A model generated the notes under the pieces. The model had not been told where the DNA came from. It did not search any database and saw only the letters and a program-made list of their open reading frames with translations. Positions 4,673 to 63,057 of a stretch of 64,000 nucleotides of DNA are shown one piece after another. The stretch covers positions 214,606-278,605 of the forward strand of contig CAZZNY010000001.1 of NCBI GenBank assembly GCA_964655935.1. The letters are read 5' to 3'. Every line of letters begins with the position of its first letter. Positions within the stretch are counted from its first letter, which is position 1. A program made the translations under genes and the position numbers. The DNA comes from an uncultured Candidatus Peribacteria bacterium (GTDB lineage Bacteria; Patescibacteriota; Gracilibacteria; BD1-5; UBA2023).

Positions 4673-4706
4673 AAAAACTCGTTAACCAAACTGATTAACG
4701 AGTTTT
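4673..4706 (-). terminator. perfect 12-13 bp hairpin downstream of the giant gene
   Basis: AAAACTCGTTAA - CCAAACTGA - TTAACGAGTTTT, flanked by A/T runs. It lies 75 nt past the TAG of the 4780-13185 gene. Confidence 0.6.
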
Positions 4707-4743
4707 CTAGATTGTTTTGTGCTTCGTAATGATGAGCCAATCA

Positions 4744-4774
4744 GGAGATCCTGAAACAAGTTCAGGATGACGTG
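4744..4774. repeat. GTCATCC-box palindromic element (short form)
   Basis: ATCCTGAA-ACAAG-TTCAGGAT-GACGTG. Nearly identical to the right arm of the 15806-15887 copy. Confidence 0.7.
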
Positions 4775-4779
4775 CTCTG

Positions 4780-15242: not shown

Positions 15243-16561
<1,319 letters not shown>

Positions 16562-17083: not shown

Positions 17084-17713
17084 TTAATCACTCTTTTTAT
17101 CCTTCTCTTTTTTCATTTCCTCGAAAAGCGTATTGAGTTGTTTTTGTATAAGATCAAGCGAATCGACTACTCGATGGATACGAGCATCTCGTTCATGTTC
17201 TCGTTTTTCATCTTCCGTTTCCTCGATGATATCATCTTCCACATTTTCATTGATCTCTTCGACATCCTCCTGAAGTTCGTCCACATCTTTCTCGATCGAA
17301 TCGACATCTTTTTCAATTTCTTCCACATCTTCCTGGATCTCTTCGATATCCTCCTGGATCTCATCGACATCCTCCTGAATCTCATCAATATCTTTCTCCA
17401 CTTCCTTCAAGCTTTTCGTATTCTTATTAACTGCCATCTGGATGAAAATCGCGAGATAGATCGCTTCGAGTGAGACGATATTCGTAAGAATCGCCAACAT
17501 CTTATCCATCTCTACTCAGAAAAGTACGAGCAAAAAAGCTCCAGAAAATAAAATAGTATGAACAATAAGTGAGCTTATCGAACCCATCCATTCAGTAACT
17601 GCAGAAGCAATTATCTCAAGATTACTTTGTTTATTTTTTGATGATTTTTTAATATTTTGAGCCTTTTTCTGAGGCAATGAATGTACGGTTTTTTTTGGCA
17701 TACAAATTATCAT
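17084..17713 (-). CDS. small membrane protein (DUF1003 / iron-permease-like core) with an acidic heptad-repeat tail
   Basis: Track ORFs 17516-17713 and 17084-17509 are joined by TGA 17516-17518. Core sequence LTNIVSLEAIYLAIFIQMAVNKN, then eight DxxEIQE-type heptads. TAA at 17084-17086. Confidence 0.55.
17225..17392 (-). repeat. eight tandem 21-nt (7-aa) repeats inside the CDS
   Basis: DIDEIQE DVDEIQE DIEEIQE DVEEIEK DVDSIEK DVDELQE DVEEINE NVEDDII. Confidence 0.8.
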
Positions 17714-17818
17714 TATGAGCTCGCGACAGTATAATCAAAAAGAGGAAAAAGAAAAAATATTTACAAAATTTAAAAGTGGGATAAACTCAGTAATATTAAT
17801 ACTCTTCATATATTACAT

Positions 17819-21668: not shown

Positions 21669-22448
21669 ATTTATAGTTCAAATAATGTAAGAAAGAAAAC
21701 TAAAAGCTAACATAAGACTCAGTGCATAAAAAGAAATATCTCAAGGTGTTATTCCTATAACACGTATAAATATTCAAAATATCGCCCAAAGTCATACGAG
21801 TCAAAAAATGGAATCACGAAAAAATTTGGTTACGTATATTTGAAAAAATGAGGAAAAAATCAAAAGTACAAGAAAAACATACATCTGTGCGATGCTTGTC
21901 TGAAAGAATCAAAGAAATGAGAGGTATGATGAAATATTCAAAAAGATAGCGACACTGATCCATGAAAAATATATACGAAATGGCAAAAGGAAAAAAAGAG
22001 TGAATCTTCGCGGATGGAGATGAGATTCATAAGAACCAAGCTTGCCATAGATAAAAGAAAGCGAAAGAAAAAGTGTCGTCATACTTAATAGCGAAAGTCC
22101 TATATATTCATGATGCCAAGAGAAAATCCAAGCAATATTTGCGGCACACGAAAGAATAAACCAGCCAGATTTTTTATCGATAAATTCAGCGATTGATTTT
22201 TCGTGTCTCTTAAAGAAAAGATCATACAACTGAAAGAAGATAAATCCTGCGAGTAAGAAATATATAAGTCACCAAATCACAAAAGTATAACCAGCAGGTA
22301 CAAAAAAACCGGCGTAGATATCCGATATCTGGCCGGTAGTTTTTCATCACAAAGGAAGTGAATTAGCTGCATAATTTGCAGTAATCATTGCACCAAAGGC
22401 AAGCGTATTAAAAATACGAAGAATAATAGTTTTTGGTCCGGTTTTCAT
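21654..22448 (-). CDS. TspO/MBR-like tryptophan-rich membrane protein (264 aa)
   Basis: MKTGPKTIILRIFNTLAFGAMITANYAANSLPLGGKTTGQISDIYAGFFVPAGYTFVIWGLIY... Frame checked from 22448 to TAG 21654-21656. Confidence 0.6.
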
Positions 22449-22535
22449 ATTCTTATGAGAAAAAAGAATAAGATCACCTTCACTATATTTTTTTTTGAAA
22501 TAATGCAAGAAAAAAGATGGGAACAGACATAGTTT

Positions 22536-22612
22536 GTCATTCTCCAGTGAAACGAAGAATCCCTTGTAGACGACTTATCTACAAGGGATTCTCACGCTAC
22601 GCTCAGAATGAC
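22536..22612. repeat. GTCATTCT...AGAATGAC nested palindrome (77 nt)
   Basis: The outer 8-bp inverted repeat is GTCATTCT/AGAATGAC. The inner 13-bp stem is GAATCCCTTGTAG/CTACAAGGGATTC. An extra half-site TTCAGAATGAC lies at 22623-22633. Confidence 0.75.
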
Positions 22613-22645
22613 AGATTAAGGATTCAGAATGACAACCAATGTTTT

Positions 22646-24577
22646 TTAGCTTTCTCGTTTCTTAAAAGGTTTTCGTGGTGGGAATTTTTTATCACCAAAT
22701 GGTTTTTTGTCTCCGAAATCCTCACGAGGTTTTCGTGGAGCCCATTCACGGCGTTCACCACCTTCTTTTTTCTCTCCAAAAGGTTTATCAAAATCTCGTT
22801 TTGGTCGATCACCGAAAGGCTTTCGATCTCCGAATGTTTTTCTCTCTGGTCGATCTCCACCAAAAGATGATTTTCGATCTCCAAAATCTTCACGTGGTTT
22901 TCGTGGAGTCCATTCTCGTTTTTCACTAGAAAATTCACCTGCAGGTTTTCTGTTTCAGAATGATGGCTTACGCGGAGATTGTTCACCACCGAAAGATGGT
23001 CTTGCATCAGAATCTACATTTGAGAAGAAAGGTTTGCTTTCACGAGGAGCTCGTGGAGCGTCAAAATCTCGTTTTGGTCGATCACCAAAAGGTTTTCGAT
23101 CACCAGATGGTTTTCGATCAGAGAAAGGTCGTGGGGCACGTCATGCTGAACTTGTTTCAGCATCCCCCGAATTTCGAGATGTACCAAAAGAAGGTTTTCG
23201 TGGAGTCCATTCTCGTTTTTCACCAGTTGCTTCTCTTGAAGGTTTTCGATCAGAAAATGCTGGTTTTTTATCTCCATATACATTTCGATCTTCAGTACCA
23301 TCACGAGTTCATCGATATCCAGTACTTCGTCCACCTCGAGCAGAAGAACCTCCAGATCGAGCACTAGAAGAACTACTTCGACCACCACTTCTTCCTCCGC
23401 GTCCACTTTGAGTATTTTCAGTATTATTACGTCGCTCTGCAGCTTCGTCTCGACGAACTTCTACTCCTTCGCTATCGACTTTCTTGATTCGGATTTTATT
23501 GCTTTTTTCGACTTTATAGAGCGCTTCACCTTCGTTTTTCGATACGAACATGATTGCTTTTCCTTCTTTTCCGGCTCGACCAGTTCGACCGATTCGGTGA
23601 ATATATGACTCTGGATCGTTTGGAACATCATAATTGATGACGAGATGGATATGGCCGAGATTTAGACCTCGAGCCGCGACATCAGTCGTCACAAGAATCT
23701 GTAATAGACCTTTTTTATATCGATCCATCATTCGGAAACGTTGACTTTGTTTCATATCACCATTAATATATCCAGCTTCAAAACCATCATCTTCGAGTTT
23801 CCCTACGAGCTGTTCAGTGTTTCGTTTTGTCTCAGTAAAGACGAGAACTTTTTCCTCAGCTTTTCTGTGAGTTTCAAGATATTCCTTAAGCATTTCGTAT
23901 TTTTCAAAATGTGGAACTTCCATAAAAGAGTGATCGATTTTTTCTACCGTAATAGTGTCACCAGATTTTACGAAAGTGTAATCGACTCAGAGATGTTTTT
24001 CGATAATAACTCGAATATCTGGAGTGATCGTCGCAGAAAATGCAAAAACTTGTTTAAGATTTTTACAATTCTCCCAAATATATTCGATATCTTGGACGAA
24101 TCCCATATCGAGCATTCGATCGACTTCATCGAGAATAAGAAATTCGATAGTCGAAAGATCGAGAATTCCTCGCTCTATAAAGTCCATAGTTCGACCTGGA
24201 GTACCAGTGACAATGTGTGGTTTTCGATCAAGATCTTTCTTTTGTCCGTAGAGCGCAGCTCCACCGTAGACGGCAGTCGACCGGATCATCATGCTTCGAG
24301 AAAGATTGAAAGCGTCTTCTCGAATCTGACTCACGAGTTCACGTGTTGGTCCGAGAATAAGAGCTTGTGTAGTACGTTTTTCAGCATCAATACCATTTAA
24401 GAGTGGAATCATAAAGGCTCCTGTTTTACCAGTACCCGTCTGAGACTGTCCGACGATATTTTTTCCAGTAAGCGCTGTAGGAATTACTTCCATCTGGATA
24501 GCGGTAGGTTCATTAAAACCAGCCAAAGTAAGAGAATTGATCAAGCTTGGTTGCAGATCAAAATCAGAAAATTTCAT
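22646..24577 (-). CDS. DEAD-box (DEVD variant) ATP-dependent RNA helicase with a ~220-aa Arg/Lys/Gly/Pro-rich repeat tail (643 aa)
   Basis: Q-motif FNEPTAIQ, motif I GQSQTGTGKT, PTRELV, LILDEVDRML, SAT, HRIGRTGRAG. The tail carries repeats such as FGDRKPFGDRPKRDF and REWTPRKP. Frame checked to TAA 22646-22648. Confidence 0.85.
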
Positions 24578-24648
24578 AAAAAAAAGTGAAGAAATAGTGC
24601 CAAAATGCACATTACATTCGCAGCTATAACAAACAATGACATAAAAAT

Positions 24649-24674
24649 CGTCATTGCGAGGCACGAAGCAATCT
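24649..24674. repeat. GTCATTGC-box element
   Basis: CGTCATTGCGAGGCACGAAGCAATCT. Confidence 0.5.
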
Positions 24675-24720
24675 AGAAATTGCACTATTATACCTCTATT
24701 ACAGTGTCAAAAAAGCGGAA

Positions 24721-24745
24721 GATTCCAGTCTACACCGGAATGACG
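24721..24745. repeat. half element ending in GGAATGACG
   Basis: GATTCCAG-TCTACAC-CGGAATGACG. Confidence 0.5.
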
Positions 24746-25036
24746 TTTTTCAAAAAGACAAAAATGGATGTGCCCATTATACGATTCTTCCCAAGCGTGG
24801 CTTCGCAAGTGGATAAGAAAGGATCGGGCAAAAAACAAAGGAAAGAAAACGGCTCAAAGCATAAAATATGCTTTCCCGAAACAAAATTCTCGAAAAACGA
24901 GTAATTTTTTATAGTTTTTTACCAGAACGCACAGAAGTATATGGATTAATTCCAAAAAGCAAAAAAGAAAAAGGAAACAAAAAATAAGAGCTCTCACCTA
25001 AGCGAAAACTCTTACTTAATTAGTAATCCCGCTTTT

Positions 25037-25066
25037 GTCATTCCCGCGGAGGCGGGAATCCAGGAT
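25037..25066. repeat. GTCATTCCCGC hairpin element
   Basis: GTCATTCCCGCGGAGGCGGGAATCCAGGAT. Differs by about 1-2 nt from the copy at 47010-47039. Confidence 0.75.
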
Positions 25067-25086
25067 AAAATATTAATCCTTTTTAA

Positions 25087-25509
25087 TTACATGTTATTCT
25101 TAGCAAGCAATATTTTTCCTTCGCCTCAAATTTTTGTCGCTACGAAATCAATAACGATTCCATATATCGCACCAGCCACTATCGTCAACCAGAATATTAT
25201 ATTTTGTTGTGGTATCGGCGTAAAATAAACACCGATCGCCATCTGTATTGAAACAATCGCACCGAATAAAGCTCAGCGAAATATTGGAAATATTCGAAAA
25301 CCAAAAACTGGATGATGAGAATAAATACCGATAAGTCAGATCGTAAAACCAATCATAAAGCGATTCATAAGGATGCTCCACATAAGAACTGTTCACCAAA
25401 TAGCTGGATTCGTACCAGACGCGAGCCAGACACAGATAAAACCGAAAAGAATTCAAAGTACGAGAGAAGTGATCCACCTCTTCATAAAAACAGAAGATCC
25501 GTTTTTCAT
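25087..25509 (-). CDS. small 4-TM membrane protein (140 aa), function unknown
   Basis: MKNGSSVFMKRWITSLVLGILFGFICVWLASGTNPAIWGTVLMW...IVAGAIYGIVIDFVATKIGGEG. This frame differs from track ORF 25148-25477. Confidence 0.6.
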
Positions 25510-25552
25510 AGTATGAAAATTAGGGAGTAAAGATATTAACTCGAGTGCCAAG

Positions 25553-25604
25553 CACGTCATCCTCGGGCTCCAAGTACGTCATCCTCGGGCTTGACCCGGG
25601 GATC
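25553..25604 (+). repeat. tandem CGTCATCCTCGGGCT element (forward orientation)
   Basis: CACGTCATCCTCGGGCTC-CAAG-TACGTCATCCTCGGGCTTGACCCGGGGATC. Confidence 0.8.
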
Positions 25605-25629
25605 TCATGCGGTTCAGATAGTTGATGAT

Positions 25630-25655
25630 GAGATTCCCGTTTTCACGGGAATGAC
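25630..25655. repeat. hairpin element ATTCCCG-TTTTCA-CGGGAAT-GACG
   Basis: 7-bp stem followed by the GACG box. Confidence 0.6.
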
Positions 25656-25795
25656 GTTCTTTAATATTATAGACGAAACCGTCGAAATACAAGGATTATT
25701 TTTCTTACATTGTCATCTCTAGAGAGGGGCTAGTACTTTTTTTTGGTATAAATCAAAATTTGAATATTATACATTTAACCTAATCCACTCACCCT

Positions 25796-26641
25796 ATGAA
25801 ACTCATCTCCTTTCTCGAAAATATCTGACTTCTAAAGCGTCACGAAACCAGAAAACTACTTCCCGGCGAACTCTTCTGACTCGCACTCGGAGGCTGAGCC
25901 GCTCGAGGTCTCACTCATATCTGAGTCCTCGAATATCTCGAAGAACACGACTGCTTCCCTTCTGAGATCTCTGGAACCAGTATGTGATCTATCATCGCAG
26001 CACTCTATGCGACCGGGAAAAAACCAGCAGACATCAAAGAACTTATTAAAAATCTCAAATTCTCAAGTCTTATCGATCCAGATCTGAAAACCGGACTCAT
26101 AAAATGAGAAAAAATCAGAAATTATCTCGAAATAATTCTCTGAAACAGCACATTCGAAGATTGTAGTATACCAGTAAAAATCGTCGCGACAGATATCGAC
26201 ACAGGAAAAAAACGAGTATTCGAATCAGGTTCTCTTATAGATGCGGTACGAGCTTCGATCTGAGTTCCAGGAATTTTTAAACCATTCGAAAAATCTGGAT
26301 GACATTATGTAGACGGTGGATTGACAGAAAATGTGCCAATATCAGTCCTTACGAGCAAAAAAGTGATCGGAGTATCAGCGCTTCGTGATATTACCAGACC
26401 ACACAATATCAAAAAATCATTTCTTGGATTTGAATATAATGCACATTTTGCAACCAGTTATATTATCATGCAGAAAAGTATAGATATTCTTCTCTCACAA
26501 AACGAACACCAATCATTTCATACTCCAAATAAAGAAATCATAAAGATTCATCCAAAATTTGGTGAAATCGATTACTATGAATTCGATAAATATGAAGAAA
26601 TAATTCTCGCGGGATATAAGGCAGCGGCTCAAATGTTATAA
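25796..26641 (+). CDS. patatin-like phospholipase (281 aa)
   Basis: LALGGGAARGLTHIGVLEYLEE...ISGTSMGSIIAALYATG...YVDGGLTENVP. The oxyanion GGG, the GxSxG serine and the DGG aspartate are all present. Several of these Gly are TGA (e.g. 25895-25897, 25985-25987). Confidence 0.85.
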
Positions 26642-26654
26642 GATTTTCATCGTG

Positions 26655-26732
26655 CACGTCATCCCGGAATTTTCTGGACATCTTCGAGTTTCGAAGCATC
26701 AGAAAATCTTCCAGAAAATATCCGGGATCCAG
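26655..26732. repeat. long GTCATCCCGG nested palindrome
   Basis: CACGTCATCCCGGAATTTTCTGGA ... CTTCGA-GTT-TCGAAG ... TTCCAGAAAATATCCGGGATCCAG. Confidence 0.7.
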
Positions 26733-26796
26733 CTTAAAAATCTATAGAAAAGGAGGGTGTTTTATTTAGATTCCATTTATCGAGAGAACCTCGTAG

Positions 26797-26850
26797 TGGA
26801 TCCCCGGGTCAAGCCCGAGGATGACGTGCTTGGAGCTCGAGGATGACGTG
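26797..26850 (-). repeat. tandem CGTCATCCTCGGGCT element (reverse orientation)
   Basis: TGGATCCCCGGGTCAAGCCCGAGGATGACGTG-CTTG-GAGCTCGAGGATGACGTG. This is the reverse complement of the 25553-25604 copy. Confidence 0.8.
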
Positions 26851-26901
26851 TCTGAAGAATGATTCACTATCAAAAAAAATTATCATTTCACTTTTTTATC
26901 T

Positions 26902-28161
26902 ATGAACTGGACGCAAGAACTCACAAATACCTCTGTAGAAAATTTTGGAACTTTTTCTTTAGACGAACAGCAAAAAATTATCAATTATCTGAATGAAAAT
27001 ATTTCTCCAGAAGAAGTCAAAAAACAACTCGCTCAAAAACATAATGCTCTGGAAAATATCAAGAAATGAAGAGGAATTCTTGAAGAGAATACTCAACTCT
27101 ATCCGGAATGTATGGACTCCGCAAGTTTTTCGTCCGTTACTCCGTCTTTCGATAGTTATGCGATCGTCCTCACGGCTGGCTGAGAAGGTGAACGACTTAT
27201 ACAGAGTCTAAAAAAAGAATGATATTCAGACGACGAACTTAAAGATTTTACGAAGGCCACTTTTCCGCTTCCTGATTTTCCTGGGAATGTCGGTGCGCTC
27301 CAGATTAATTGCATCGTCATTCGCGAGCTTAGTAAAAAATTTAAAAAAGATATTCCTGTTATTATTACTACTGGACCAAAAAATTCTTCGACCGCGAGAA
27401 TCATCCCTGAAATTCTCAAAAAAAATGATAATTTTTGACTCAGAAATCTCCATATCATAGCGCAAAATGAACGAATTCATTTTAGCACCAACGATATGCT
27501 TGCATTTTCTTTTGATGCAAATAATAATCCCGAACTCGCGACGAATCCGGATGAGACCGGCGGTCCGATTATGAAACTGAAAGAATATGACGAATTTCTT
27601 CAAAAATCGCCTCTTGAATGGTTATGAGAAAGAGGTGTACGAAAACTCATGATTCTCCAAGGAACCGCTGTATACGATCCGAAAATCATTCTCAGTATGG
27701 CAAGCGCCTGACAAGAATTCGATGGAGTCGGTATCGGAGTTGCGAGATCAAGCTTTCCTCATGAAGATCCATATGGAACCTATGTACTAATACAAAACCA
27801 GGATCAAGAGAAAAAACTCATTATCGTAGAAAAAGATATTCGAACCAAACAAACGTATCTCGTACAAAATAAAGAGACAAGATCATATCTTCCTTTCAAT
27901 ACTGGTTTTTATATCTTCGATTGTACCCTTCTTTCTGAAAACAACCTCCCTGATTATGCGACGCCAGCGAAAGAGGTACTTCTATGATTACCACCAGCTC
28001 CGAAAATCTGATATGCCGCAACAGACATTATCGCACTCGCAAAAAAACCAGCGGTTCTTACGATCAATCCGTCTACTTTCTGAGTCATAAAAAACAGTTC
28101 GGATCTCCCCATTCTCTCAAAGCTGGCAAAAGATTTTTGACTTGATGCGTTTGTTTCATAA
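26902..28161 (+). CDS. UDPGP-family nucleotide-sugar pyrophosphorylase-like protein (419 aa)
   Basis: AIVLTAGGEGERL, NPDETGGP, LPFNTGFYIF. All 21 lines were translated in one frame with 9 TGA. TAA at 28159-28161. Confidence 0.55.
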
Positions 28162-28172
28162 TAGTAATTATA

Positions 28173-28212
28173 CACGTCATCCCGGACGTAGCGCTAGCGT
28201 AGATCAGGGATC
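28173..28212. repeat. GTCATCCCGGA element, one arm degenerate
   Basis: CACGTCATCCCGGA-CGTAGCGCTAGCGTAGA-TCAGGGATCC. The core matches the 35040-35082 copy in inverted orientation with 1 mismatch. Confidence 0.7.
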
Positions 28213-28258
28213 CATATAAAATAGTTCTCCTTATATTTGAATAAAGCGAATTGGTCGA

Positions 28259-28312
28259 GGTGGATCCCGGGTCCAGCCCGAGGATGACGTACTGAGAGCC
28301 CGAGGATGACGT
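28259..28312 (-). repeat. tandem CGTCATCCTCGGGCT element (reverse orientation)
   Basis: GGTGGATCCCGGGTCCAGCCCGAGGATGACGTACTGAGAGCCCGAGGATGACGTT. Confidence 0.8.
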
Positions 28313-28451
28313 TCTAGTATTCAGGATAGTACAAATAATTCACAAATGTTTTTGACAAACAAGTTCTTTTGTTTATTATTAATGAGCAAAACAAATCAAA
28401 AACACATACAAAATTCTTTTGAAATCAATACTATTTCATCTTTTTTTGTAT

Positions 28452-28943
28452 ATGAAAAAACTACTCACTCTCCTCATTTTCCTCTGAGGAATTTTCACGA
28501 TCGTAAATGTGAACGCTTACTGTACGCAAGACTGAAACTATTGTGGTGGATCTTCTTGGGCATGCGAACGATACTGTTCTGGAAATCATTACGAAGAACC
28601 TTACTGTCCAACTCACTGTCCAGGTTATAAAGTAGATTATTATAATAATAACTATTACTACACAAACAATCCAAATATCTATTACTACACCACTACTCCA
28701 AATTCGTATTATAATAACTACAACAACAATTATCCGCAATATTCTAATTATAGCAATAATTGATACCACTGCGTAGCATACGATGAAACCGATCAGAATT
28801 ATTATAGTAATCCCGATTACTATAATTATCAAACTTACTGTGATTGTACTGGAAGACCAAACTGTTCGTGCGGGTATTATCAAAATCCAAATCAAAATAA
28901 TTGGACTCCAGCCCGAAGATGCATACAATGGAAACAGTGGTAA
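28452..28943 (+). CDS. small secreted Cys-rich, Asn/Tyr-rich low-complexity protein (163 aa)
   Basis: MKKLLTLLIFLGGIFTIVNVNAYCTQDGNYCGGSSWACERYCSGNHYEEPYCPTHCPGYKVDYYNNNYYYTNNPNIYYYTTTPNSYYNNYNNNYPQYSNYSNNGY... Confidence 0.6.
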
Positions 28944-35028: not shown

Positions 35029-35039
35029 GCATAAAAGAA

Positions 35040-35082
35040 ACGTCATCCCGGATCTACGCTAGCACTACGTCCGGGATGACGT
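35040..35082. repeat. perfect 13-bp inverted repeat, GTCATCCCGGA element
   Basis: ACGTCATCCCGGA-N17-TCCGGGATGACGT. Confidence 0.85.
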
Positions 35083-35123
35083 AATTATTTTTTCTCAGTC
35101 TCTATTTTCTATTTTCTAAATCT

Positions 35124-35729: not shown

Positions 35730-35802
35730 AAAACTACGGTTAAATTAATACGGCGGAAGTATAACTGAGCTTCGAGGATTGCCAAATGAAAATTGAAAAG
35801 TT

Positions 35803-36054
35803 CTATTTTGATAATGAAATAAGCTCAAGTTTTTGTTTTCTTGTCAGCTTTTTTAGTTCGTTTTCTCGTTTTCTTGCTTCGCTCAGAGTCTCGAATGATT
35901 CATTATACAAAAGTTCTACCGGTCGACGAATCTTTGTATAATGAGCGCCTGACTTGAGGTTATTATGCTCATGAAGTCGCTTCGTAAGATCGGGAGTCGA
36001 GCCGATATAGAGCGTATCATCCGAGCACTGGAGAATGTACGTAAAATAAGACAT
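35803..36054 (-). CDS. GIY-YIG nuclease family protein (UPF0213-like, 83 aa)
   Basis: MSYFTYILQCSDDTLYIGSTPDLTKRLHEHNN...RENELKKLTRKQK. Confidence 0.75.
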   Translation of the reverse strand: MSYFTYILQCSDDTLYIGSTPDLTKRLHEHNNLKSGAHYTKIRRPVELLYNESFETLSEARKRENELKKLTRKQKLELISLSK

Positions 36055-41743: not shown

Positions 41744-42433
41744 TTATTTAGCTTTCTTCTTTGTTTCTTTCTTTTCAGCTTTTTCTTTTACTGGAGTTTC
41801 TTTTTCTACTTTTTTCTTAGCAGCTTTTACTGGAGCTTCTTCGATTACTTCTACTATTTCTTCTTTTACTTCTTTTTTGATAGGTTTGATGACGACGTTT
41901 TCTTTTTTAAGACCAGCAGCTTCGAGAAGTTTCATGATCTTATCAAGTTTTTCATTAAGTCGTTCAAATTCTAATTTGCTTTCATCAACTTTTCTTGGTC
42001 GATCTCGATTCTTGTCATCTGTAACAAAACAATTGCTGCAGTAAACAGGACGTTCACCATTTGGTTTGAAAGGAACCTCACATTCAGTACCACAATCAGC
42101 ACAAACAGCTTTATACATTCGTTTTTCGATAGAATCTGATCGATCAAATCGATCTCGTCGACCATCATCTCGATCTCTTCGTGGTTCTTTTCGCTCGAAA
42201 TCTCGTCCACCGTCGCTTTCTATGTTTCTAAAACAGTTACTGCAGTAAACTGGACGTTCACCGGTAGGTTTGAAAGGAACCTGACAATCATCACCACACT
42301 CAGCACAAGTTGTCTTAAACATCTCAGGTCGTCCTCCATCTCGTCCACCTCCGAAACCGCCACGGCTTCCACCACGACCGCCTCCGAATCATCCACTAGA
42401 TCTTCCACCTCTATCTCTATCAAAATTACCCAT
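41744..42433 (-). CDS. CxxC-x17-CxxC zinc-ribbon repeat protein with RGG head and Lys/Glu tail (229 aa)
   Basis: Two copies of C(A/V)(E/D)CG..C.VPFKP.GERPVYCSNCF. The N-terminus is MGNFDRDRGGRSSGGFGGGRGGSRGGFGGGRDGG. Confidence 0.75.
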
Positions 42434-46137: not shown

Positions 46138-47103
46138 TTAAAATTCAAACGGATCCAGTATCGTAATACATCCAGCCATCACATCACTCAGACCTACATA
46201 AAGCGTAGCGGAATGGTTCTCATGATGAATTAGGCCACCTGGATAGAGAATATCTTCCAGTCCTGGTATTTTCATATTATCACTCGCCGGAAAATTTTTT
46301 CTCGTGGCGATAATCTGTAGAAGCGATGCACTGTGTGTCGTCGGATCATACACGAACGACATGGCATAGTAGTGCTTTTTTTCGTCTTCTCCAAAACAAG
46401 CGATATGTCCGAGCGCTCCGATCTTCCCGTCTGGTAAAAGATAGAGTTCATTTACACCACCCCATTCTTCTGGAATAAATTGATTCTCGATGATTTTTGC
46501 CTGAAGAATAACTTCTGCGTTCAAATCCTCTAAATTTTGGATTTCTATATATCAGATCTTTCCTCTTCCACCGAGTTCACCGTGAGGACGCGTAAAAACA
46601 CCGATTCTACCGTTCGTAAGACGTATAATCCGAACGCCCTTCATTATATCCGGACCGACGGCAAATTTTTTAAGCGACTGCAGGTCTTTTCAACGATAGA
46701 AAACCGTTCGATAACCGACATGACGCGAATCGGTTCGCGGATATATCTCGATGCCACCAAAAATCATTTCCTCATCAATCGTCGTAATAAATCCATCTTC
46801 AAGCTGAAATATCGGAGCATCCGAAACGGGAACCCATACTTCATTCTTCTCTTCAAAAAAGACAATATATGACTCTGCACATGCCTCTCTTGCTTCCACG
46901 CGACCAGCAATAATCATAGTATCATTAATTCTAAACGGTGCAGTGATATTATAAACATCCCGACCATCCACGCCGGAAAAATGTAATATTTTTCCAATTC
47001 AAAGCGTTTGTCATTCCCGCGCAGGCGGGAATCCAGGATAATTAGTATCTCCTTCCATTTTTTCTTCAAAATTTTTCAGAAGTTCGGAACAGTTTATTGG
47101 CAT
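46138..47103 (-). CDS. DUF1861-like beta-propeller (GH130-like) protein; a repeat element lies inside the N-terminal coding region
   Basis: DVYNITAPF..IIAGRVEAREA...FTRPHGELGGRGKIGYIEI...LGHIACFGEDEKKHYYAMSF. Track ORFs 46690-46971 and 46138-46524 are in frame. The frame stays open to ATG 47101-47103. Confidence 0.55.
47010..47039. repeat. GTCATTCCCGC hairpin element inside the DUF1861-like ORF
   Basis: GTCATTCCCGCGCAGGCGGGAATCCAGGAT. On the minus strand it reads YPGFPPAREGQ in frame. Confidence 0.75.
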
Positions 47104-59067: not shown

Positions 59068-59077
59068 AAATAATTAT

Positions 59078-59110
59078 ATCATCCCAGAACCCCGCGGCGG
59101 GGTATCCAGA
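59078..59110. repeat. ATCATCCC...GGTATCCAG hairpin element
   Basis: TATCATCCCAGAACCCCGCGGCGGGGTATCCAGAATC. Confidence 0.55.
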
Positions 59111-59201
59111 ATCTTCCGCTTAAATATCAAAAATTCCAAAGAGACATTTTTAAAAGAATGTCTCTTTTTGTTCGCTAAAAAATTATCTCACTCATAACTT
59201 T

Positions 59202-59238
59202 GTGGATGAATCCCTGGGTCAAGCCCGAGGATGATGTG
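59202..59238 (-). repeat. single CATCATCCTCGGGCT element (reverse orientation)
   Basis: GTGGATGAATCCCTGGGTCAAGCCCGAGGATGATGTG. Confidence 0.7.
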
Positions 59239-59244
59239 ATATTA

Positions 59245-62989: not shown

Positions 62990-63010
62990 AGTTGTAATAA
63001 AGCTGAATCT

Positions 63011-63042
63011 GTCATCCTGAAAATATAAACACTCAAGATGAC
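63011..63042. repeat. GTCATCCTGA...TCAAGATGAC inverted repeat in the rpoB-rpoC spacer
   Basis: 10-bp arms with 1 mismatch and a 12-nt loop. Confidence 0.7.
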
Positions 63043-63057
63043 ATTCTCAGTATTTGA

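What the first reader, a model, noticed from the sequence alone, without database searches (positions are those of the whole stretch)
25037..28312. Dense family of palindromic intergenic elements bounded by GTCAT(C/T)C / G(A/G)ATGAC boxes; inverted copies bracket the patatin gene
At least 17 copies occur in the window: 4744, 15806, 22536, 24649, 24721, 25037, 25553, 25630, 26655, 26797, 28173, 28259, 35040, 47010, 59078, 59202 and 63011. There are several sub-families. These include CGTCATCCTCGGGCT(T)GACCCGGGGATC, often duplicated; GTCATTCCCGCG.AGGCGGGAATCCAGGAT; ACGTCATCCCGGA-N17-TCCGGGATGACGT; GTCATCCTGAA hairpins; and GTCATTCT...AGAATGAC. All share the same terminal box around an internal hairpin. 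The 25553-25604 and 26797-26850 copies are reverse complements of each other and flank the patatin-like phospholipase gene. A third copy (28259-28312) closes the next gene. The elements could be REP/MITE-like mobile elements, terminators or insulators, or recognition sites for an unknown nuclease or transposase.
Basis: seen in the sequence. Interest (0 to 1): 0.65.

Follow-up and report, generated by a model that had tools for sequence, protein, structure and literature searches.

The report
Known CGTC-tagged hairpin repeats (Ssn type)
The palindromic elements are real, but they belong to a known, very widespread family of small DNA hairpin repeats (Neisseria dRS3/NTS, Rickettsia RPE-4/6, "CGTC-tagged REPs"), cut elsewhere by small Ssn nucleases; here they occur in a tiny bacterium that reads TGA as glycine, so only the host lineage is new.

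Summary
The window carries about 21 units of one hairpin-repeat family. ACGTCATYC occurs 15 times against 0.9 expected. Seventeen of the 21 units lie in the 10% of the window that is intergenic.

Each unit has a one-sided head, (C)GTC, then an 8-9 bp stem starting A-T, T-A, a 4-5 nt loop and a C after the stem.

This is the CGTC-tagged REP family (Di Nocera 2013), also called NTS or Ssn-related motifs (Chenal 2025).
- One subfamily matches the Neisseria NTS consensus at 27 of 28 positions.
- Another is the same hairpin that flanks canonical ssn nuclease genes in metagenome contigs.
- One dimer sits in frame in a flavoprotein gene and adds 24 residues that ten orthologues lack. The elements have therefore moved.

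The partner enzyme is unresolved. The window's only GIY-YIG gene (35806-36054) is YazA/UPF0213-like, falls outside the Ssn clade and has no flanking repeats. No RAYT or other transposase is in the window.

Verdict: a new member of a known kind, of modest interest.

The parts
4704..4735 (-). Decayed unit (head CTCATCAT, weak stem), in tandem with the next unit
   Evidence: (I12)
4741..4776 (-). D-type unit GCACGTC-ATCCTGAA-cttgt-TTCAGGAT-C. It begins 4 nt after the stop of the 2,810-aa gene and is in sense orientation.
15806..15887 (.). Head-out (HH) homodimer of two D-type units (15806-15839 +, 15854-15887 -). It is translated in frame inside the HI0933-family flavoprotein gene and adds 24 residues.
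22536..22633 (.). Decayed HH dimer (GTCATTCT... / ...AGAATGAC) with a perfect hairpin in the spacer and an extra AGAATGAC remnant
23136..23170 (+). D-type unit (stem ATGCTGAA) translated inside the repetitive, low-complexity C-terminal tail of the DEAD-box helicase, antisense to the gene
   Evidence: (I6, I13)
24648..24746 (.). HH heterodimer: a weak 5-bp unit at 24648-24680 (+) and a unit at 24716-24746 (-) with a G.T wobble. It lies upstream of the true DEAD-box start at about 24577.
25031..25068 (+). B-type unit tGTCATTCCCGCGGAGGCGGGAATCCAGG, close to the Neisseria NTS / dRS3 (CGTC-1 type)
   Evidence: (D15)
25551..25606 (+). A-type composite: a partial copy (head plus 5' arm, 22-nt period) followed by the full unit CGTC-ATCCTCGGG-cttga-CCCGGGGAT-C. 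This is the left arm of the pair around the patatin gene.
   Evidence: (I1)
25629..25659 (-). E-type unit ACGTC-ATTCCCGT-gaaa-ACGGGAAT-C, the HH partner of the unit at 25551
26654..26733 (+). C-type unit with a long extended hairpin (-19.7 kcal/mol as DNA), 14 nt after the patatin stop codon
26797..26850 (-). A-type composite, the right arm of the pair around the patatin gene and the HH partner of the unit at 26654
   Evidence: (I1, D5, D14)
28172..28216 (+). C-type unit with a decayed stem, a copy of the 35045-35082 element (95% over 38 nt). It begins 12 nt after the stop of the gene 26902-28161.
   Evidence: (I3)
28259..28315 (-). A-type composite with one bulged T, the HH partner of the unit at 28172
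   Evidence: (I2, D14)
35038..35084 (.). Two-headed C-type palindrome ACGTCATCCCGGA-N17-TCCGGGATGACGT, between the EngB-like and Tex-like genes
47004..47041 (+). B-type unit that matches the NTS consensus at 27 of 28 positions. It lies in the first 35 codons of the DUF1861 ORF, where it reads ...PGFPPAREGQT....
   Evidence: (D15)
59076..59240 (.). Decayed HH dimer. Both heads are mutated to ATCAT, and the spacer holds a terminator-like hairpin.
   Evidence: (D5, I15)
63010..63045 (.). Imperfect two-headed unit GTCATCCTGAA...TCAAGATGAC, between rpoB and rpoC
35806..36054 (-). The only GIY-YIG nuclease gene in the window (83 aa). It is YazA/UPF0213-like, lies outside the canonical Ssn clade and is not flanked by units, so it is at most a candidate partner.

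Best explanation
The elements belong to the CGTC-tagged REP family, also called NTS / Ssn-related motifs (SRM). Each unit is a short DNA hairpin read on one strand: a (C)GTC head, an 8-9 bp stem that always starts A-T, T-A, a 4-5 nt loop and a C just after the stem.

In other bacteria, small single-domain GIY-YIG nucleases (Ssn) bind exactly these features on single-stranded DNA and cut a few bases 5' of the head. By inference the same happens here whenever the DNA is single-stranded, for example during replication, repair or DNA uptake.

Several stem subfamilies have multiplied within this genome, mostly as head-out dimers of 80-170 nt. They land mainly in intergenic spacers close to gene ends, and occasionally in frame inside genes.

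- Shown here: the anatomy, the enrichment, the family identity, intragenomic copying and one lineage-specific insertion.
- Inferred: cleavage by an Ssn-type enzyme in this organism, and the way the units are copied.
For: Anatomy
- GTC is present in 12 of 12 clean units.
- Stem positions 1, 2 and 4 are invariant (A-T, T-A, C-G). Positions 3 and 5-8 vary through compensatory pairs.
- C follows the stem in 10 of 12 units.
- G.T wobbles make the head strand fold better than its complement (-7.7 against -6.0 kcal/mol; -4.4 against -2.1).

Fit to published work
- In SsnA assays the C after the palindrome is most critical for binding, and the three bases before it matter most for cutting.
- The B type equals the NTS consensus CGTCATTCCCGCGMAVGCGGGAATCYRG at 27 of 28 positions. 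It has near-identical matches in Neisseria, Photobacterium, Aeromonas, Azospirillum, Legionella, Cupriavidus and sphingomonads.
- The anatomy, the head-out dimers, the intragenic copies and the lack of an adjacent transposase all match the published CGTC-REP description.

Link to ssn genes elsewhere
- The D-type hairpin flanks canonical ssn genes on both sides, heads outward, in metagenome loci L186 and L198.
- Canonical ssn genes in Azospirillum, Sphingobium and N. gonorrhoeae are flanked by such units.

Copying within this genome
- Non-functional flanks and loops are shared between copies at 89-96% identity.
- A 24-residue insert in the flavoprotein is absent from the 10 closest orthologues.
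- Logan contigs break at the units, and word depth jumps from about 10x to as much as 1,350x over them.
Against: - No canonical Ssn gene is in the window. Its only GIY-YIG protein groups with CPR and Firmicutes YazA/UPF0213 proteins, apart from the clade of SRM-flanked Ssn proteins.
- The nearest unit is 720 nt from that gene. Its orthologues in 80 genomes mostly have no units within 10 kb.
- Only 4 of the 21 units fit the strict published SRM pattern.
- No presence/absence polymorphism was seen in four metagenome runs.
- No close relative exists for comparison: the next patatin homologue is 57% identical.
- No biochemical data exist for this lineage.
Confidence: 0.8

Rival explanations
1. The units are REPINs copied by a RAYT (an IS200/IS605-like Y1 transposase), as proposed for the same ATTCCCGCGCAGGCGGGAATC sequence in Neisseria. 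Ssn would be irrelevant to their spread.
For: A preprint treats the Neisseria dRS3-type doublets as REPINs of a Group 2 RAYT, whose loss correlates with REPIN decay. The head-out doublet architecture seen here is what defines a REPIN.
Against: - The tag is CGTC, not the GTAG of RAYT-linked REPs, and the CGTC families were reported to lack transposase association.
- No Y1_Tnp or any other transposase family was found in 42 window ORFs.
- The same hairpins flank ssn genes, not RAYT genes, in L088, L090, L091, L186 and L198.
Confidence: 0.08
2. The hairpins serve mainly as RNA elements, namely transcription terminators, 3'-end stabilisers or insulators, and are kept for that role.
For: Several units start 4-14 nt after a stop codon in sense orientation (4741, 26654 and 28172). 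G.T wobbles favour folding of the head strand, which would also hold for RNA. CGTC REPs elsewhere cluster at 3' ends of genes.
Against: - No T-run follows the units, and terminator-like sites in the region are no more frequent than in shuffles (7 against 5.3).
- The genes have separate terminator-like hairpins of their own (25017-24982 and the spacer of the dimer at 59076-59240).
- Some units lie between divergent genes (25551-25659), antisense to genes (25031, 23136) or inside ORFs.
- The invariant GTC head and trailing C are not needed for a terminator.
- SsnA does not act on RNA.
Confidence: 0.08
3. The units are MITEs left by a conventional DDE insertion sequence, with GTCAT...ATGAC as its terminal inverted repeats.
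For: Head-out dimers look like terminal inverted repeats around a short core.
Against: - Single units have a head at one end only.
- The partners of a dimer are often of different subfamilies (A with E, C with A).
- No target-site duplication flanks the one insertion that can be dated, at 15806-15887.
- No transposase is present in the window.
Confidence: 0.03

Closest known systems
NTS / Ssn-related motifs (SRM) with SsnA-family GIY-YIG ssDNA nucleases (Chenal et al. 2025, Nat Commun 16:2388, PMC11893778)
   Same: The same oriented motif: a CGTCAT head, a palindrome starting ATTCC or ATCC, and a C after it. The B type fits the NTS consensus at 27 of 28 positions, and the A type resembles NTSvar (CGTCATACTCGGGN5CCCGAGTATC). 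Units flank genes in an 'NTS-gene-NTS' arrangement. The same D-type hairpin flanks canonical ssn genes in L186 and L198.
   Different: The host is a code-25 Gracilibacteria-like CPR bacterium. Several stem subfamilies coexist, some with longer loops than the SRM pattern allows. No Ssn-clade gene was found in the 64 kb examined, and the GIY-YIG gene present is YazA/UPF0213-like and has no flanking units.
CGTC-tagged REPs, families CGTC-1 to CGTC-4, which include Neisseria dRS3 and Rickettsia RPE-4/RPE-6 (Di Nocera, De Gregorio & Rocco 2013, BMC Genomics 14:522, PMC3733652)
   Same: A CGTC or TGTC tag, 8-9 bp stems beginning AT, 4-5 nt loops and a short tail. Head-head dimers predominate, with 20-100 bp spacers that are sometimes structured. 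Heterodimers occur. In-frame intragenic dimers encode 20-30 residues. No adjacent transposase is present.
   Different: That survey covered Proteobacteria and a few other phyla, not CPR. The stems here include AT-richer variants (ATCCTGAA), and some units have very long loops or extended stems (26654-26733 and 35038-35084).
REP/REPIN-RAYT systems (GTAG-tagged REPs of Enterobacteria and Pseudomonas)
   Same: A short hairpin plus a conserved tag on one side, inverted doublets as the likely mobile unit, an intergenic bias, and presumed action on single-stranded DNA.
   Different: The tag is CGTC rather than GTAG. No Y1 transposase was found here. The enzyme linked to this motif elsewhere is a GIY-YIG nuclease, not an HUH enzyme.
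UPF0213 / YazA-YhbQ small GIY-YIG proteins (PDB 1ywl EF2693, 1zg2 BH0048)
   Same: The window's 83-aa protein aligns end to end with these (E 6e-16 to 1ywl; 53% identity to B. subtilis YazA). It keeps the GIY and YIG tyrosines and the glutamate at position 64.
   Different: This family has no known link to hairpin repeats. B. subtilis and the other hosts sampled showed no units near the gene.

Membership tests
CGTC-tagged REPs (Di Nocera 2013) | CGTC (or TGTC) tetranucleotide at one end only | tested here: met
   GTC is present in 12 of 12 clean units. The base before it is C in 10 and T in 2.
CGTC-tagged REPs (Di Nocera 2013) | Stem of 8-9 bp whose first two pairs are A-T and T-A; loop of 4-5 nt | tested here: met
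   Stems are 8-9 bp with A-T and T-A invariant, and 10 of the 12 clean units have 4-5 nt loops. The two readings of the two-headed unit at 35042/35045 have 15-17 nt loops. The unit at 26658, not among the 12, has an extended stem.
CGTC-tagged REPs (Di Nocera 2013) | Mostly head-head dimers with 20-100 bp spacers, with intragenic in-frame copies | tested here: met
   Seven head-out dimers were found: 15806, 22536, 24648, 25551/25629, 26654/26797, 28172/28259 and 59076/59207. The in-frame dimer adds 24 aa that 10 orthologues lack.
NTS / SRM-Ssn system (Chenal 2025) | Match to the SRM search pattern HGTCWYN(0-2)YYVSBRHN(0-5)WNVSBRGN(0-2)RNCYNB or to the NTS consensus | tested here: met
   Four exact matches against 0.065 expected. 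The unit at 47009-47036 fits the NTS consensus at 27 of 28 positions. The other units miss the strict pattern through their loop or stem details.
NTS / SRM-Ssn system (Chenal 2025) | Conserved bases needed by SsnA: three nucleotides 5' of the palindrome and a C immediately 3' of it | tested here: met
   GTC in 12 of 12 units and a following C in 10 of 12. The requirement itself comes from the paper.
NTS / SRM-Ssn system (Chenal 2025) | A gene of the Ssn clade (cd10448-type, with ...GFT..Y...REKQ.K.W.R.WK..LIE..NP.W.DL) in the same genome | tested here: inconclusive
   None was found in the window by tblastn with four canonical Ssn proteins. The only GIY-YIG protein falls outside the Ssn clade. 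The rest of the contig, which is at least 920 kb, could not be searched.
NTS / SRM-Ssn system (Chenal 2025) | Repeats flank the nuclease gene (SRM-ssn-SRM) | tested here: not met
   No unit lies within 500 bp of 35806-36054, the nearest being 720 nt away. The feature is met for the same hairpin type elsewhere, in L186 and L198.
NTS / SRM-Ssn system (Chenal 2025) | Strand-specific cleavage of the motif as ssDNA only | not testable with these tools
   This needs purified enzyme and oligonucleotides.
REP/REPIN-RAYT | GTAG tag and an associated Y1 (RAYT) transposase gene | tested here: not met
   The tag is CGTC. No PF01797 or other transposase hit was found in 42 window ORFs. The genome-wide search was not possible.
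Intrinsic terminators | A GC-rich hairpin followed directly by a T-run, downstream of genes in sense orientation | tested here: not met
   No T-runs follow the units. The scan found 7 sites against 5.3 expected, and only one loosely overlaps a unit.
MITEs of DDE transposons | Terminal inverted repeats with a target-site duplication | tested here: not met
   Single units are one-headed, and no duplication flanks the insertion at 15806-15887.

The most novel reading that the evidence does not exclude
The head-out dimers may be non-autonomous mobile elements copied in trans by a minimal GIY-YIG hairpin nuclease acting on single-stranded DNA. That would be a transposition chemistry not yet described.

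In this lineage the enzyme could be the YazA/UPF0213-type protein at 35806-36054 rather than a canonical Ssn. If so, the large and uncharacterised UPF0213 family would gain a function.

The tandem partial copies (head plus 5' arm) that precede full A-type units may be footprints of the copying reaction. They occur here and also in Sinorhizobium and Shinella.
Probability: 0.15. Interest if true: 0.7.

Novelty: new member of a known kind. Interest (0 to 1): 0.3.

Why it matters
It extends the CGTC-REP / NTS-SRM hairpin family to a UGA=Gly Gracilibacteria-like genome of at least 920 kb. The density there is about 0.3 units per kb in this window. This fits the published trend that symbiont-type bacteria accumulate these repeats.

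Two practical points follow.
- The units break short-read assemblies: Logan contigs end exactly at them.
- They inflate ORF calls and add peptide loops to real proteins (the flavoprotein, the DEAD-box helicase tail and possibly DUF1861), so annotators of CPR genomes should mask them.

The open biological question is what copies these units. This window neither settles it nor adds much, except for one observation: a repeat-rich stretch contains only a YazA-type GIY-YIG gene.

Tried and rejected
- Rfam at gathering threshold: only the tmRNA matched, and no family matched the elements.
- The window's GIY-YIG gene as cognate Ssn.
  - It is UPF0213-like and lies outside the Ssn clade.
  - No hairpin repeats or convincing inverted repeats flank it. 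An 11-nt pair at 35749/36085 is about what chance gives.
  - Homologues in Cupriavidus, Legionella and Methylobacterium have no units nearby.
- Units near orthologues of that gene in 80 genomes: found only in four low-GC CPR loci (L020, L027, L028 and L029), and never flanking the gene.
- Strain polymorphism.
  - The only contig encoding the identical GIY-YIG protein is identical to the window over the stretch aligned.
  - Four metagenome runs show the organism's contigs with no differences. The 'joints' are other copies of the repeats, not empty sites.
  - The next relatives are only 57% identical at the protein level.
- Patatin gene as cargo of a composite transposon: rejected. The gene uses TGA=Gly nine times, and each neighbouring spacer simply carries one dimer.
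- 30220 and 30246 (ACGTCATTC inside a gene): no hairpin, so a chance or coding motif.
Full report
**Context.** The window has about 37% G+C, and its genes are open only when TGA is read as glycine (code 25). The best protein matches are to Candidatus Gracilibacteria and other CPR metagenome-assembled genomes. Near-identical DNA occurs in four rock-metagenome runs. The contig that holds the window is at least 920 kb long.

**Observation.** The elements are real.
- GTCATYC occurs 35 times against 18.9 expected.
- The longer head ACGTCATYC occurs 15 times against 0.94 expected.
- A structural scan and direct reading give about 21 units.
- Seventeen of the 21 units lie in the 9.9% of the window that is intergenic (binomial 4e-14). 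The units have 45-63% G+C against 32% for intergenic DNA.
- The inverted 52-nt copies around the patatin gene are confirmed: 25553-25604 against 26799-26850, 96% complementary. The third copy at 28266-28315 is 92% complementary.

**Anatomy.** Over 12 clean units:
- The trinucleotide GTC is invariant and is preceded by C in 10 units and T in 2.
- The hairpin starts directly after it. Stem pairs 1, 2 and 4 are always A-T, T-A and C-G.
- Pairs 3 and 5-8 vary between subfamilies but stay complementary.
- The base after the stem is C in 10 units.

Folding as single-stranded DNA gives exactly this hairpin, with an 8-9 bp stem and a 4-5 nt loop. Where a G.T wobble occurs, the head strand folds better than its complement: -7.7 against -6.0 kcal/mol, and -4.4 against -2.1.

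The conserved box is therefore one-sided. It also arises in the two-headed palindromes at 35038-35084 and 63010-63045.

**What they are.** A blastn search with the B-type unit found near-identical sequences in Neisseria (40 or more per record), Photobacterium, Aeromonas, Azospirillum, Legionella, Cupriavidus and sphingomonads. Two papers describe this family.
- Di Nocera et al. 2013 (PMC3733652) define CGTC-tagged REPs. These have a CGTC or TGTC tag at one end, 8-9 bp stems starting AT, 4-5 nt loops and a short tail. Head-head dimers with 20-100 bp spacers predominate, in-frame intragenic copies occur, and no transposase is associated. Neisseria dRS3 and Rickettsia RPE-4/6 are members.
- Chenal et al. 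2025 (PMC11893778) show that the oriented 28-nt form, NTS (CGTCATTCCCGCGMAVGCGGGAATCYRG), and its relatives, the Ssn-related motifs (SRM), are bound and cut as single-stranded DNA by small GIY-YIG nucleases called Ssn. They are not cut as dsDNA or RNA. The C after the palindrome is most critical for binding, and the three bases before the palindrome matter most for cutting. In N. meningitidis the system lowers transformation by NTS-bearing DNA.

The invariant positions in the window are exactly these. The published SRM pattern hits four units against 0.065 expected. The unit at 47009-47036 fits the NTS consensus at 27 of 28 positions. The A type resembles NTSvar.

**Independent link to ssn genes.** I fetched canonical ssn genes and looked at their flanks.
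- In Azospirillum lipoferum the gene sits between sufB and sufC with a head-out dimer on each side.
- In Sphingobium it has one unit on each side.
- In N. gonorrhoeae it has ten NTS within 1.6 kb.

A metagenome scan for the window's D-type hairpin (GTCATCCTGAA-N6-TTCAGGATC) returned at least 120 loci with median G+C of 0.52. In L186 and L198 this same hairpin flanks a canonical ssn gene on both sides, heads outward. In L106 it lies next to one, and in L200 a closely similar unit does. The same D-type hairpin also occurs in another Gracilibacteria genome with 25% G+C (L028), and related units occur in L020, L027 and L029.

**Evidence that the units multiply and move.**
- Copies of one subfamily share sequence that the hairpin does not need. 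The three A-type composites share the 6-nt linker and a duplicated head plus 5' arm (92-96% identity). The two B units share 38 nt including flanks (95%). The two C units share a 17-19 nt loop (95%).
- The dimer at 15806-15887 is translated inside the HI0933-family flavoprotein gene. The protein has 24 residues that are absent from PDB homologues and from its ten closest orthologues, which are 50-60% identical.
- A D unit is translated in the repetitive C-terminal tail of the DEAD-box helicase. A B unit lies within the first 35 codons of the DUF1861 ORF.
- In four metagenome runs, the Logan contigs of this organism (depth 6-12x) end exactly at the units. Summed word depth rises to about 1,000-1,350x over the B and A units. 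The units are therefore highly repeated in the sample, although how much of that depth comes from this genome is not known.
- No empty site was seen, and no close relative is available: the next patatin homologue is 57% identical.

**The partner enzyme is unresolved.** The window holds one GIY-YIG gene, at 35806-36054 on the minus strand (83 aa; Pfam PF01541, 64 bits). It keeps Tyr6, Tyr16 and Glu64.
- Its best matches are UPF0213 proteins: PDB 1ywl and 1zg2, and B. subtilis YazA at 53% identity.
- It is 37% identical to the SRM-flanked Azospirillum Ssn.
- In a tree it sits in a CPR clade next to Firmicutes YazA-like proteins. The Neisseria, Azospirillum, Sphingobium, Sinorhizobium, Planktothrix and Spirosoma Ssn proteins form a separate clade.
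- No unit lies within 500 bp of the gene, and its flanks show no convincing inverted repeat.
- Its orthologues in 80 genomes have varied neighbours and almost never have units within 10 kb.
- tblastn with canonical Ssn proteins finds nothing else in the window.

A canonical ssn gene may lie elsewhere in the genome, may have been lost, or may be replaced in function by the YazA-type protein. I cannot tell which.

**Rivals.**
- A RAYT as the copying enzyme has been proposed for the same Neisseria sequence. Here the tag is CGTC, and Pfam scans of 42 ORFs found no transposase of any kind.
- A terminator role is not supported as the main function. No T-runs follow the units, the terminator scan is at chance level, and some units lie between divergent genes, antisense to genes, or inside ORFs. 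A secondary effect on mRNA 3' ends remains possible for the units that start 4-14 nt after stop codons.
- The MITE reading fails on the one-headed units, the mixed-type dimers and the absence of a target duplication.

**The finding's own region.** The three spacers at 25.5, 26.7 and 28.2 kb each carry one head-out heterodimer that contains an A-type composite: A+/E-, long C+/A- and C+/A-. The spacer at 24.6-25.1 kb carries another dimer and a B unit. The 'bracketing' of the patatin gene is the NTS-gene-NTS arrangement described for Neisseria. It is not a composite transposon, and the gene itself uses TGA=Gly nine times.

**Verdict.** The elements belong to a published family, and the new information is the host lineage. 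The question of what copies them stays open, and this window cannot answer it.

Noticed in passing
window 25551-25606, 26797-26850, 28259-28315; L215 100-210; L216 130-260: Full A-type units are preceded by one or more tandem partial copies (the head plus the 5' arm, sometimes plus the loop) with a 20-30 nt period. The same architecture, including a similar 'caagt' linker before the head, occurs in Sinorhizobium medicae and Shinella replicons. It may be a footprint of how the units are copied or repaired.
   Followed up: partly
window 35806-36054 and loci L005-L035: The 83-aa YazA-like GIY-YIG protein is 65-78% identical across very different CPR classes (records labelled Gracilibacteria, Nomurabacteria, Saccharibacteria and Parcubacteria) and about 60% identical to Lachnospiraceae proteins. 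Its gene neighbours differ in nearly every genome. Only L010, L012 and L038 share the EngB-like neighbour.
   Followed up: partly
window 22646-23570: The DEAD-box helicase has a C-terminal tail of about 300 aa built of repeated KPFGDR, REWTPRKP and similar motifs (direct DNA repeats D8, D11 and D12; translation). The long ORF call (start 24862 or 24997) overshoots the real start, MKFSDF... at about 24577.
   Followed up: partly
window 17235-17423: Six to eight tandem 21-nt (7-codon) repeats lie inside the gene 17084-17809, a coiled-coil-like protein with a DUF948 match.
   Followed up: no
window 24982-25017 and about 59135-59170: Separate terminator-like hairpins with T-runs sit next to hairpin-repeat units. 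One lies downstream of the small membrane-protein gene, and one lies in the spacer of the dimer at 59076-59240. The genes therefore seem to have their own terminators.
   Followed up: no
window 22400-28500 in runs X1-X4: Logan contigs of the organism end exactly at the repeat units, and the 'joints' reported there are other repeat copies. Short-read assemblies of such genomes will fragment or mis-join at these sites.
   Followed up: partly
window 42026-42322: A 93-nt direct repeat (82% identity, 204 nt apart) lies inside the gene 41744-42433. It corresponds to two treble-clef zinc-finger (zf_Tbcl_2) modules.
   Followed up: no
window 26902-28161: This 419-aa protein, between two repeat-bearing spacers, has no Pfam match at E<=0.001, despite a G-G-E-G-ERL motif that looks nucleotidyltransferase-like.
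   Followed up: no
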